Of a stretch of DNA of 64,000 nt, positions 14,818 to 62,015 are shown piece by piece. A model generated the notes under the pieces. That model was not told where the DNA came from. It was given only the letters and a program-made list of their open reading frames with translations, and made no database searches. The translations under genes and the position numbers were made by a program. Position 1 is the stretch's first letter. Each line of letters begins with the position of its first letter. The stretch is from Felis catus (taxonomy: Eukaryota): contig NC_058368.1 of NCBI RefSeq assembly GCF_018350175.1, positions 1,302,001 to 1,366,000 on the forward strand, given 5' to 3'.

Positions 14818-15041
14818 GGGGCGCCTGGGTGGCTCAGTCGGTTGAGCGTCTGACTTCGGCTCAGGTCAAGATCTCACAGTCCGTGAGTTCGAGCCCCGCG
14901 TCGGGCTCTGTGCTGACAGCTCAGAGCCTGGAGCCTGTTTCAGATGCTGTGTCTCCCTCTCTCTCTGCCCCTCCCCTGTTCATGCTCTGTCTCTCTCTGT
15001 CTCAAAAACAAATAAAACTTTAAAAAAAAATTAAAAAAAAA
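14818..15041 (+). mobile_element. Felid CanSINE
   Basis: Consensus head and tail; TSD AGAACTCAG. Confidence 0.95.
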
Positions 15042-56640: not shown

Positions 56641-56666
56641 CTTGTAGTTTAAAAACTTGTGTTGTC

Positions 56667-56865
56667 GGGGGGCCTGGGTGGCTCAGTCGGTTAAGTGTCT
56701 GACTTCGGCTCAGGTCATGGTCTCACGGTTCATGAGTTCGAGCCCCGCGTCGGGCTCTGTGCTGACAGTTCAGAGCCTGGAGCCTGCTTCAGATTCTGTG
56801 TCTCCCTCTCTCTCTGCCCCTCCCCCACTCATGCTCTGTCTTTCTCTGTCTCTCAATAATAAATA
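56667..56865 (+). mobile_element. Felid CanSINE with truncated tail
   Basis: SINE head and body. Confidence 0.92.
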
Positions 56866-57829
56866 TCTAATCTCTATGAAAATACTAATTACAACAGGAA
56901 GTTTGGGGAGATTTGTTTCCATGCTCCATGAACTGTTTCTTTCCTCTGATTTCCATTTTTCAGTTTGTTTTGCTCTTTATCTTTTAAGTGTTCCTCAAAG
57001 ATCTCATTGACTATTAATATTTAAGAGTAACATACTAAAAAGCTGACTGTAATCTCTGTGTGCATGAATAGGACTCTGACAGGTGGATCACACTGTAAGT
57101 GACTGAGTGGAATCCTTGCCATTTCATTAGAGGACAGGAGCTCTCACTGTTTTGCATGGTGACATTCACTTGTTTTCAGAGCTGTTGTACCCTGTGGGCT
57201 GTCATTTATGTCTCCAAGTCCAGAGCCCCTCTTGTTCAACTTCACTGAAAAATCAAGCTATGGTCTTTTCAGAAGGGGAGGACAGTTTCCTGCCTACATG
57301 CCAGGATATTGCTGCTCCTTATATACACTTCCAATCCAATCTTCCTTCCAGCTCCACTCTACCTCTCTGCTTTCAGAGGTTCCTGGCACTTCCATTCCTG
57401 ATCATTGCCAGGCTGTTGCAGCCTCCATGGGCTAACTTCCCATTGGCTTCCCCACTTGCAAGCAGTGAAGTTATAGCTTTCACCTTGCTGCTAAGACAGC
57501 AGCGGCGACTTGTTCACTTGCTTTCCATTACACATTTTGTTGATTGTCTCTCATCTGCTATTGTCTTTTCACCTGTGGTGATTTGTGGTCATTTTAATGA
57601 AGCTTGGGGAGGAGAGGAGATCAACTATGCATTTAATCTGCCATATTTCCACGATTTCTTTCATATCATTAGGGTGAAGGAAAGCCAATGACACTGAATG
57701 AGTGAGATAAAACAACTATAGACTCAGTAGTTTGGTAATAAAGCATGATCATGGCATTGTGGCAGGGAGTGGTTAGCTCATTCCTTCTTATTATAGGTTA
57801 TCGACGTTTTGTTTTGAAAATAAAGTATG

Positions 57830-57835
57830 GTGCTC

Positions 57836-57877
<42 letters not shown>

Positions 57878-57936
57878 TATTAGCATGGCCCCTGCGCAAG
57901 GATGACACGCAAATTCGTGAAGCGTTCCATATTTTT
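57830..57936 (+). pseudogene. RNU6: Full-length U6 snRNA retrocopy (5' part of a chimeric processed pseudogene)
   Basis: GTGCTCGCTTCGGCAGCAC...GAAGCGTTCCATATTTTT matches canonical mammalian U6 except G49>T at 57878. It is followed by an extra 18 nt and an A-rich tail, and flanked by a 13-bp TSD AAAATAAAGTATG (57817-57829, 57979-57991). Confidence 0.97.
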
Positions 57937-58162
57937 AATAAAAGTCACTCCTGCAAAAAAAAAATAAATAAATAAATAAAAATAAAGTATGAAGAATTGA
58001 GACTGACAGAACAAATGTCATACAGGAGCTATCTGAGCCTGGTCAACAAGGACCATCTAGAAGTGAAAAGACTTTGATTATAACTCATTCCTTGTTTCTG
58101 ATGTAAACTCTACTACTTACAAAAATAAAAAGGAGAGTGACAATAGTCTCCCTCCCTCTTCT

Positions 58163-58366
58163 TTTTTTAAGTTTATTTATTTTGAGAGAGAGAGCATGAA
58201 TGCACAGCAAGGAAGGGGCAGAAAGAGAGGGAGAAAGAGAATTCCAAGTAGGTTCTGTACTGTCAGCACAGACCCCAGTGCAGGGCTCGATCTCATGAAT
58301 CATGAGATCATGACCTGAGCTGAGGTCAAGAGTCAGTCACTTAACCAACTGAGCCACCCAGGTGTG
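58163..58366 (-). mobile_element. CanSINE
   Basis: SINE body, reverse complement. Confidence 0.9.
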
Positions 58367-60706: not shown

Positions 60707-60906
60707 AAATTTTTTTTAATTTTTTTTTTTTTTTTTTTTTGAGAGAGAGCAAGAGAGAGTAGGAGAGAGGGAGACACAGAATCCAAAGCAGGCTCCAGAC
60801 TGAGCTGTCAGCACAGAGCCCAATGCAGGGCTTAAACTCACAAACTGCAAGATCATGACCTGAGCTGAAGTCAGACACTTAACCGCCTGAGCCATCCAGG
60901 CGCTCC
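60707..60906 (-). mobile_element. Felid CanSINE
   Basis: TSD GAAAATTGCCTT. Confidence 0.92.
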
Positions 60907-61643
60907 GAAAATTGCCTTTCTGGTGTGTGATATGAGTTGCTTACCTCTCACTGGAGAAAAGAGATTGGGATCTAGTCATTTCTCTTTTGATTTATCCCAC
61001 GGTGTAATCCAATATAGTAATATTAAAATATGCCTAATATTAAAATATGCCATGATCTCAGAATTCAAATGAAGCCACAAAAGAATTTCTTGAGTGCCGA
61101 GCATGTGCCAGAAATCTAGGTTACTTGACGTGTACTTCTTCAAATTCTCAAAATAACCGTGCAGAGCGGGCAGTGGTGTCCCCAGTGTACATTACCTGCC
61201 TACGTCCCAACTGCTAGGTGAGGCGGACCTTTAAGATCTGTCCAGCTCCAAAGCCCATCTTTCTGATGCACCAAGCTGTCCCCTTATAACAACAAAGTGA
61301 CTTCCAAATTAGGGTGCTCCATCTGTAGGATCCATCACCTCTTGCTATAATAACTGTCAAGAAACACAAAAGAGACAGTTGGTTTCAGTATGATTAGTAA
61401 GCAGATTCTCCTCAGGGCCTTGGCCAAGCTATAGTTATTTCAAACACATTCACAAAATGTGAGTCTTTCTTGTTTGTCAGGTTGCTCTTTTGTCTTCTTA
61501 TCTACATTTTCCTCTTTATATTCTTTTTATCTTTGATCCACCAAATGGAAACGTCCCTTAAAGAAGAATCCTACCATCATCTGGGCAGATTGGATTTTGG
61601 TGAGAGGAAAATTGAACGACATGCATTTAAAATTGGTAGTTGT

Positions 61644-62015
61644 CATTTGCAACTATGTGGATGGAACTGGAGGGTATTATGCTAAGTGAAATTAGTCAGA
61701 GAAAGACAAAAATCATATGGCCTCACTCATATGACGACTTTCAGAGAAAAAACAGATAAACATAAGGGAAGGGAAACAAAAATAATATAAAAACAGAGAG
61801 GGGGACAAAACAGAAGAGACTCGTAAATATGGAGAACAAACTGAGGGTTGCTGGAGGGGTTGTGGGAGGTGGGATGGGCTAAACGGGTAAGGGACACTAA
61901 GGAATCTACTCCTGAAATCATTGTTGCACCATATGTTAACTAACTTGGATGTAAACTTAAAAAAATTAAAAAATTTTTAAAATAAAATAAAGTAAAAAAA
62001 AAAATGAAATAAAAT
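61644..62015 (+). mobile_element. 5'-truncated felid LINE-1 3' end (L1_Fc-like)
   Basis: GGAATCTACTCCTGAAATCATTGTTGCAC..AACTAACTTGGATGTAAA plus A-rich tail; TSD-like flanks. Confidence 0.88.

What the first reader, a model, noticed from the sequence alone, without database searches (positions are those of the whole stretch)
57817..57991. Chimeric retrogene: full-length U6 snRNA fused to an unidentified polyadenylated 3' end
Seen: one TSD-bounded insertion (AAAATAAAGTATG at 57817-57829 and 57979-57991, at a TTTTG/AAAA L1-endonuclease-like site). It contains complete U6 ending in 5 T (57830-57936), then AATAAAAGTCACTCCTGC (57937-57954), then an A tail. The extra 18 nt start with a poly(A) signal, and only 12 nt separate that hexamer from the tail. 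They match neither the L1 nor the CanSINE 3' ends in this window. Known: U6-L1 and rarer U6-mRNA chimeras are mobilised by L1 and attributed to template switching or RtcB ligation of U6's cyclic-phosphate end. Inference: this is a young (1 mismatch) U6-mRNA chimera with an unusually short partner joined right at the AATAAA.
Basis: partly seen in the sequence, partly recalled or inferred. Interest (0 to 1): 0.75.

Follow-up and report, generated by a model that had tools for sequence, protein, structure and literature searches.

The report
U6 fused to SLC3A2 mRNA end
This is a dead retrocopy in which a complete U6 spliceosomal RNA was joined to the last 18 bases and poly(A) tail of the SLC3A2 messenger RNA and pasted into the genome by a LINE-1 element: a tidy example of an already known kind of event.

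Summary
Rfam scores a complete U6 (114 bits) at 57830-57936. It is followed by the 18-mer and a 24-nt A-rich tail, and a perfect 13-bp direct repeat bounds the whole.

The 18-mer is now identified. It has exactly one other copy in the 2.43-Gb genome, on another contig, starting at the AATAAA hexamer 111 nt after the stop codon of SLC3A2 (4F2hc/CD98hc). There the genome reads on CTGGTG, where the insertion turns to A's.

RNA-seq coverage of that locus stops there. Poly(A) ends lie 2-7 nt downstream of the chimera's tail point, and none is shown exactly at it.

Five promoter-bearing U6 genes end in four T plus G with unrelated flanks. Read-through is therefore refuted, and the five T mark mature U6. 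No sister junction exists.

It is an L1-mobilised U6-mRNA chimeric retrocopy, a known kind. In a 76-copy survey, 10 of the other 75 copies also have a partner plus tail of 50 nt or less, and two more junctions start exactly at a hexamer.

Ligation versus template switching cannot be decided. The insertion's age could not be tested.

The parts
57811..57816 (.). Upstream flank of the target site, top strand GTTTTG before the AAAA that opens the duplication. The bottom strand reads TTATTTT/CAAAAC.
   Evidence: read directly. The T-run before the nick fits the L1 endonuclease preference. The base after the nick is C, not the consensus A; the consensus is as quoted in Doucet 2015, passage.
57817..57829 (.). 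Left copy of the 13-bp target-site duplication AAAATAAAGTATG.
57830..57936 (+). Full-length U6 snRNA copy of 107 nt ending in five T. It has one internal difference (position 49, G>T) from the genome's five gene-like U6 copies.
   Evidence: (Rfam RF00026, 114 bits, model 1-105/105).
57937..57954 (+). Last 18 nt of the SLC3A2 (4F2hc/CD98hc) mRNA 3' UTR. It begins with the AATAAA hexamer (57937-57942), and 12 nt separate the hexamer from the tail.
   Evidence: The only other genomic copy is at G000:C21:106388983-106389000. That copy starts 111 nt after the stop codon of an exon matching 4F2hc at E 4e-51. RNA-seq coverage ends there.
57955..57978 (+). Poly(A)-derived tail: A10, then TAAA repeats.
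57979..57991 (.). Right copy of the 13-bp target-site duplication.

Best explanation
The insertion is a chimeric retrocopy made of two RNAs and pasted in by LINE-1 target-primed reverse transcription.

Shown:
- The 5' part is a complete, mature U6 snRNA. Its fifth U is not encoded by the genome's U6 genes.
- The 3' part is the terminal 18 nt of the SLC3A2 mRNA from another contig, followed by a poly(A)-derived tail.
- A single 13-bp target-site duplication bounds the pair.
- Nothing like a U6 promoter lies upstream.

Inferred:
- An L1 endonuclease nick at TTATTTT/C primed reverse transcription on the poly(A) tail. The cDNA ran through the 18 nt and then through U6 to its first base.
- The product is an inert pseudogene.

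For the step that made the junction I commit to RNA ligation before reverse transcription. The 2',3'-cyclic-phosphate end of mature U6 would be joined, RtcB-type, to a 5'-OH decay fragment of SLC3A2 mRNA that began at the hexamer. I put this at about 55:35 over template switching by the L1 reverse transcriptase.

The confidence given (0.88) is for the identity and the L1 mobilisation, not for the choice of junction step.
For: - Complete U6 in sense orientation.
- 13/13 duplication flanking the whole composite, with none inside it.
- The 18-mer has 2 genomic copies and 0 for the reversed control; about 0.07 chance copies are expected.
- The other copy begins at an AATAAA 111 nt after the stop codon of the last SLC3A2 exon. 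That exon matches PDB 4F2hc chains at E 4.2e-51, against 1.6e-4 for the paralogue rBAT.
- At that locus the genome reads TGC|CTGGTG, while the insertion reads TGC|AAAA.
- In three raw-read RNA runs, depth falls to zero after L002 1531. Poly(A) loose ends sit behind L002 1520-1525.
- All five U6 copies with a TATA-like box near -30 end in ATATTTTG and have 3' flanks unlike the 18-mer.
- Moldovan 2019 (PMC6789731, passages read) states that the major U6 form ends in five U with a 2',3'-cyclic phosphate. The same passages report that RtcB can join it to L1 and other 5'-OH RNAs, and that retrotransposition of such RNAs gives chimeric pseudogenes.
- The junction is exact. There are no extra bases and no shared bases: the source has A before the hexamer and the chimera has T.
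Against: - The poly(A) ends shown lie behind L002 1520, 1521, 1522, 1523 and 1525, whereas the chimera's tail starts after 1518. No row at 1518 is among the 10 shown, and 3 rows were not shown. The source mRNA would therefore have used a minor or tissue-specific cleavage point 2 nt upstream of the observed cluster.
- The partner identification rests on a single 18/18 match.
- The base after the inferred nick is C, not A.
- The tail is not pure A.
- No empty orthologous site was seen, so the insertion polarity rests on the duplication alone.
- Nothing in the sequence separates ligation from template switching. What would create a 5'-OH exactly at the hexamer is unknown.
Confidence: 0.88

Rival explanations
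1. Same two RNAs and same L1 mobilisation, but the junction was made during reverse transcription. L1 ORF2p began on the poly(A) tail of an intact SLC3A2 mRNA, copied 18 nt, then jumped to the 3' end of a free U6 RNA and copied it to its 5' end.
For: This is the classical model for U6/L1 and U6/mRNA chimeras (Doucet 2015, PMC4476161, passages). Moldovan 2019 says its model does not rule template switching out for some snRNA/L1 chimeras (passage). Very short partners are expected if switching can happen at any point.
Against: There is no microhomology at the junction to guide a jump. U6 is complete with its mature five-U end, as in ligated products. ORF2p prefers poly(A) ends, not poly(U) ends; this is Moldovan 2019's argument. 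None of these points is decisive.
Confidence: 0.33
2. Two independent insertions. A severely 5'-truncated SLC3A2 retrocopy (18 nt plus tail) landed first, and a U6 copy later landed exactly at its 5' edge.
For: Nothing positive. It is allowed only because no empty or intermediate orthologous site could be examined.
Against: One duplication flanks the whole composite. U6 has no tail or duplication of its own, and the second insertion would have to hit one exact phosphodiester bond.
Confidence: 0.03
3. Read-through transcript of a U6 gene whose natural 3' flank is the 18-mer. This is the refuting case the reader named.
For: None found.
Against: The 18-mer occurs only twice in the genome, and the second copy is in the SLC3A2 3' UTR, not beside a U6. 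The junction 28-mer has 1 match at up to 3 mismatches, which is itself. The five gene-like U6 copies end in T4+G and have other flanks.
Confidence: 0.01
4. The 18-mer matches SLC3A2 by chance and comes from something else, such as untemplated synthesis or another RNA.
For: 18 nt is short, and the cleavage point is not among the RNA-seq ends shown.
Against: About 0.07 chance copies are expected genome-wide. The one copy found starts exactly at a used poly(A) signal and ends 2 nt before the observed cleavage cluster.
Confidence: 0.03

Closest known systems
U6/mRNA chimeric retrogenes (Buzdin et al. 2003 and Garcia-Perez et al. 2007, known to me only as cited in Doucet 2015, passage)
   Same: Full-length sense U6 at the 5' end, the 3' end of a polyadenylated cellular mRNA at the 3' end, one target-site duplication, and an L1-type target.
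   Different: The mRNA part is only 18 nt and begins exactly at the poly(A) signal. It is in a carnivore-type genome and the partner is SLC3A2. I did not read the original papers, so I cannot say how short their shortest partners are.
U6/L1 chimeric pseudogenes (Moldovan 2019, PMC6789731; Law & Burns 2025 preprint, PMC11838501, section 29 read)
   Same: Same architecture and the same mature U6 end. They are the majority type in this genome too. One of them, L037, also has an 18-nt partner that begins at the L1's own hexamer.
   Different: The partner here is not L1. Against the other copies' flanks, only the A-rich tail of this insertion finds matches (first match at flank position 19).
U6 'Poly(A)' class of processed pseudogenes (Doucet 2015, table 2, section 9 read; cat: 21 of 279)
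   Same: Full-length U6 followed within a few bases by an A-rich tail and a duplication. A pipeline that asks only for an A-rich window after U6 could file this copy there.
   Different: 18 templated bases from another gene stand between U6 and the tail.
Ordinary processed pseudogene of SLC3A2
   Same: The 3' end and poly(A) of the mRNA were copied by L1 in trans.
   Different: No coding or UTR body is present, only 18 nt. The 269-nt 3' end of the gene has no second full-length match in the genome.

Membership tests
L1-mediated U6 chimeric retro-pseudogene (U6/L1 and U6/mRNA class) | Full-length U6 in sense orientation at the 5' end of the insertion | tested here: met
   model 1-105/105, 114 bits; aligns base for base from position 1 with five gene-like copies.
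L1-mediated U6 chimeric retro-pseudogene (U6/L1 and U6/mRNA class) | U6 ends in the mature oligo-U tract, not in gene flank | tested here: met
   The insertion has five T, while the five gene-like copies encode four T then G. The five-U mature form is as stated in Moldovan 2019.
L1-mediated U6 chimeric retro-pseudogene (U6/L1 and U6/mRNA class) | The 3' part is the 5'-truncated 3' end of a polyadenylated transcript, in the same orientation | tested here: met
   The 18/18 match is unique, to the end of the SLC3A2 3' UTR. RNA-seq 3' ends lie 2-7 nt further on.
L1-mediated U6 chimeric retro-pseudogene (U6/L1 and U6/mRNA class) | A-rich tail at the 3' end | tested here: met
   57955-57978 is A10 plus TAAA repeats.
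L1-mediated U6 chimeric retro-pseudogene (U6/L1 and U6/mRNA class) | One target-site duplication around the whole composite and none inside it | tested here: met
   13/13 at 57817-57829 and 57979-57991.
L1-mediated U6 chimeric retro-pseudogene (U6/L1 and U6/mRNA class) | Target resembles the L1 endonuclease site 5'-TTTT/A | tested here: inconclusive
   The bottom strand reads TTATTTT/C. The T-run is present, but the base after the nick is C. The consensus is as quoted.
L1-mediated U6 chimeric retro-pseudogene (U6/L1 and U6/mRNA class) | Empty site at the orthologous locus of an outgroup | not testable with these tools
   No other animal genome is held. The single calls of the run tools went to the RNA question. 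The look-up of look-alike stretches found none.
Bona fide U6 snRNA gene | TATA-like box near -30 and the upstream block shared by the gene copies; four T then gene flank | tested here: not met
   L039, L040, L050, L052 and L053 have TATA-like boxes at about -30 to -22 and share an upstream block. The window copy has neither at that spacing and has a duplication and tail instead. This was read by eye.
U6/L1 chimera in the narrow sense | The 3' partner is L1 sequence | tested here: not met
   against the 3' flanks of the 76 copies plus the rest of the window, this flank matches only from position 19 on, which is the tail; there is no close copy of the 18-mer in the window.

The most novel reading that the evidence does not exclude
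Junctions that fall exactly on the first base of a poly(A) signal may not be accidents. In the 76-copy survey, three U6 chimeras have a partner that is just hexamer plus 12-14 nt plus tail: this one (SLC3A2), L037 (L1) and L029 (source unknown). That would fit a discrete 3'-terminal mRNA fragment, whose 5' end is set at the hexamer by a bound cleavage/polyadenylation or poly(A)-binding complex or by a specific cut. Such a fragment would be a preferred 5'-OH substrate for ligation to U6. The genome would then hold a fossil record of an mRNA decay intermediate.
Probability: 0.12. Interest if true: 0.55.

Novelty: new member of a known kind. Interest (0 to 1): 0.25.

Why it matters
It matters little for biology at large. 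The locus is an inert pseudogene of a well-described type.

Its value is as a clean, fully resolved case. Both parent RNAs are identified, the junction is exact to the base, and the U6 end can be shown to be the mature one because the genes encode only four T.

It also shows that a copy like this could be misfiled among 'U6 plus poly(A)' pseudogenes, if a pipeline asks only for an A-rich stretch after U6. Very short partners might then be under-counted in censuses.

The recurrence of junctions at the hexamer is a cheap hypothesis to test genome-wide.

Tried and rejected
- **Read-through of a U6 gene:** rejected.
- **Sister copies of the junction:** the 28-mer at up to 3 mismatches gave 1 match of 1, itself.
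- **SLC3A2 processed pseudogene as donor:** the 269-nt 3' end gave 4 matches. One is the gene itself. Three are 30-31-nt matches to query 182-212, which falls in the T-rich run of the UTR.
- **Source of the L029 partner:** 1 match at up to 1 mismatch, itself. At 3 mismatches there were 76 matches against 70 for the reversed control, which is chance level.
- **More hexamer junctions:**
  - U6 with five T plus AATAAA at up to 3 mismatches gave 42 places. Only 2 are exact (this one and L029), plus L037 with one change. Most others are plain A-tails or L1.
  - The four-T version gave 18 places. The one AATAAA hit (C39) is an (AATA)n tail.
  - L132 is an L1 partner.
- **Run X2 (contigs of a metatranscriptome):** one 823-nt contig covers L002 1469-1900, straight across the cleavage zone. 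It is DNA or unprocessed RNA and says nothing either way.
- **Earlier notes of this scan:** none near the place and none for look-alike stretches.
- **Empty-site and age test:** not done.
- **Classing of L1 partners:** it was done only by all-against-all BLAST of flanks, not against an L1 reference, so the L1 count is approximate.
- **Buzdin 2002/2003 and Garcia-Perez 2007:** not in the two search listings and not read.
- **Supplements:** no supplementary files of any paper were opened. The tables of human chimeras in Doucet 2015 and Law & Burns 2025 may list partner lengths that bear on 'unusually short'.

Full report
**1. The observation**

- A scan of the whole window against Rfam finds a complete U6 snRNA at 57830-57936 on the + strand: RF00026, 114 bits against a gathering score of 44, E 5.1e-29, model positions 1-105 of 105, not truncated.
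- Directly after its five T comes AATAAAAGTCACTCCTGC (57937-57954).
- Then comes a 24-nt tail of ten A followed by TAAA repeats (57955-57978).
- AAAATAAAGTATG stands at 57817-57829 and again at 57979-57991, 13 of 13 identical.
- The 467 nt upstream are single-copy in the genome, so the repeat is not part of a larger duplicated element.

**2. What the 18 bases are**

The window's own genome (2.43 Gb, 71 contigs) can be searched.
- The 18-mer occurs exactly twice: here and at G000:C21:106388983-106389000. The reversed control pattern gives 0. About 0.07 chance copies are expected.
- The second copy lies in locus L002 at 1501-1518. Upstream of it an open frame ends ...EPHEGLLLRFPYVA with a stop codon at 1388-1390.
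- The last 113 residues of that frame match solved chains of the 4F2 cell-surface antigen heavy chain (SLC3A2, CD98hc) end to end at E 4.2e-51. The paralogue rBAT reaches only 1.6e-4.
- The 18-mer therefore starts 111 nt after the SLC3A2 stop codon and opens with an AATAAA hexamer.
- After ...CTCCTGC the gene reads on CTGGTGAGG, whereas the insertion turns to A's.

**3. Is that the end of the mRNA?**

I laid three raw-read RNA runs of the same species label and one contig set on L002:1100-1900.
- In the three raw-read runs, depth is present up to the bin 1505-1531 and is zero in every bin from 1532 on.
- Reads that run off into poly(A) sit behind L002 1520 (6 reads), 1522 (6), 1523 (14) and 1525 (7) in run X23.
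- In run X24 they sit behind 1521 (5) and 1523 (10).
- Three further rows were not shown.

The gene's mRNA therefore ends here at a scattered set of points. None of the 10 rows shown is at 1518, where the chimera's tail begins. The donor molecule would have been cleaved 2 nt upstream of the nearest observed point. I regard that as ordinary scatter of cleavage sites, but it is a gap in the evidence.

The contig of run X2 crosses the whole zone and is uninformative.

**4. The refuting case**

- I collected every genomic match to the last 27 nt of U6 with at most one mismatch: 76 places. I read both flanks of all of them.
- Five copies (L039, L040, L050, L052, L053) have a TATA-like box about 30 to 22 nt upstream and share an upstream block, so they look like real genes.
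- All five end in four T followed by G, with 3' flanks unlike the 18-mer.
- They differ from the window copy only at position 49 (G against T) and position 107 (G against the fifth T).
- Doucet et al. 2015 likewise count 5 'alone' U6 copies in the cat (table 2, section 9, read). The species of this window was not established here.

Read-through is thus refuted. The fifth T, which no gene encodes, shows that the template was mature U6. Its major form ends in five U with a 2',3'-cyclic phosphate (Moldovan et al. 2019, passages read). The junction itself has no second copy at up to 3 mismatches.

**5. How it got there**

- A full-length small RNA, the 3' end of an mRNA from another contig, an A-rich tail and one duplication around the whole are the marks of L1 target-primed reverse transcription acting on a composite template.
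- The bottom strand at the target reads TTATTTT/CAAAAC. The T-run fits the L1 endonuclease preference (5'-TTTT/A, as quoted), but the next base is C.
- These steps are inferred from anatomy, not shown.

Two models exist for the junction.
- **Ligation.** Moldovan 2019 showed that RtcB can join U6 ending in a cyclic phosphate to L1 or other RNAs with a 5'-OH. They also showed that retrotransposition of such RNAs gives chimeric pseudogenes.
- **Template switching.** The older model has the reverse transcriptase jump from the mRNA to U6.

The junction here is exact. There are no extra bases and no shared bases, since the gene has A before the hexamer and the chimera has T. U6 also carries its mature end. 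That fits ligation slightly better, and I put it at about 55:35, but the sequence cannot decide.

**6. How unusual it is**

By BLAST of each 3' flank against the 3' flanks of all 76 copies and the rest of the window, roughly 45 of the 76 copies run straight from U6 into sequence that recurs in other flanks. That sequence is L1. The count is approximate, because no L1 reference was used.

Ten of the other 75 copies have a duplication-bounded partner plus tail of 50 nt or less: L012, L015, L017, L029, L031, L037, L041, L056, L071 and L080. For L029 the duplication is imperfect and was read by eye. An 18-nt partner is therefore short but has company.

A second U6-mRNA chimera exists, L077 at C42.
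- U6 is followed by 79 nt that match, at 99%, the stretch after the last coding exon of a gene at C16:64987858-64987936.
- Fourteen A and a duplication follow.

**7. A curiosity**

Three of the 76 copies have a partner that begins exactly at a hexamer and holds only 12-14 further bases.
- This copy.
- L037, whose 18-nt partner is the end of an L1 with one change in the hexamer.
- L029, with AATAAA plus 14 nt. Its source could not be found: at 3 mismatches the search gave 76 matches against 70 for the control.

Leaving out the window copy, two such cases against about 0.2 expected gives P about 0.017. This is a post hoc figure with a crude model.

Direct searches for more found none. Of 42 places for the five-T form, only 2 are exact. 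The one hit for the four-T form is an (AATA)n tail.

**8. Age**

- There is one change in 151 sites: U6, the partner and both copies of the duplication. The T at position 49 is shared only with one diverged copy, L081.
- That makes the insertion one of the less-changed U6 copies of the survey, but seven copies match the gene sequence even better.
- No orthologous site could be examined, so 'young' remains an inference.

**9. Verdict**

The missing partner is identified as SLC3A2.

The kind is well known. U6/mRNA chimeras are cited in Doucet 2015. The ligation route is in Moldovan 2019. A recent human census is in Law & Burns 2025 (abstract and section 29).

This is a new member of a known kind with no likely function, so interest is low. 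The only open lead is the possible pile-up of junctions at the poly(A) signal.

Noticed in passing
L077 (G000:C42:20273379-20273855, minus strand) and L116 1501-1579: A second U6-mRNA chimera in this genome. Full-length U6 is followed by 79 nt that match, at 99%, the stretch just after the last coding exon (ending ...AEIRETHLW*) of a gene on C16. Fourteen A and a duplication (AAAAGCAACATATCT) follow. The gene was not named.
   Followed up: partly
L029 (G000:C22:7502019-7502065, minus strand): An older U6 copy (14 differences) is joined to AATAAACCCTCTTTGCGGCC plus six A, inside an imperfect duplication. The partner starts exactly at a hexamer, like the window copy. No genomic source was found.
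   Followed up: yes
L037 (G000:C1:182713700-182713732, minus strand): A U6-L1 chimera whose L1 part is only the last 18 nt, beginning at the L1's own hexamer (with one change). Tail and a 16-bp duplication follow.
   Followed up: partly
L039, L040, L050, L052, L053: Five U6 copies have a TATA-like box near -30 and a shared upstream block, and all end in four T then G. L052 and L053 lie 1.1 kb apart in opposite orientation on C15 with identical upstream 70 nt.
   Followed up: partly
L017 (G000:C15:71083359-71083391): A full-length U6 is followed by only GCTAAT and then a 17-bp duplication, with no A-rich tail at all. That is an odd structure for an L1-made copy.
   Followed up: no
L002 1414 and 1517 (SLC3A2 3' UTR): All RNA reads of three runs show C where the assembly has T at 1414 (81/81, 20/20, 76/76). 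At 1517, inside the 18-mer, part of the reads show T for G (4 of 46-47 in X23, 8 of 22 in X24). The chimera carries the assembly's G.
   Followed up: no
window 14823-14907 (+); window 56660-56865, 58158-58365, 60713-60906, 61641-61974: A tRNA-like hit just above the Rfam threshold (32.1 bits against 29) looks like the head of a tRNA-derived SINE. Four stretches around the insertion match about 20 of the other loci's flanks, which fits common SINE copies. From about 58160, the stretch after the insertion reads as such an element on the minus strand.
   Followed up: no
G000, 8 to 10 places listed: A recurrent class of U6 copies is cut back to three T and followed directly by a long A-run (...CCATATTTAAAAAAAA). 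This fits the 3'-truncated class that Doucet 2015 reports as dominant in the cat.
   Followed up: no
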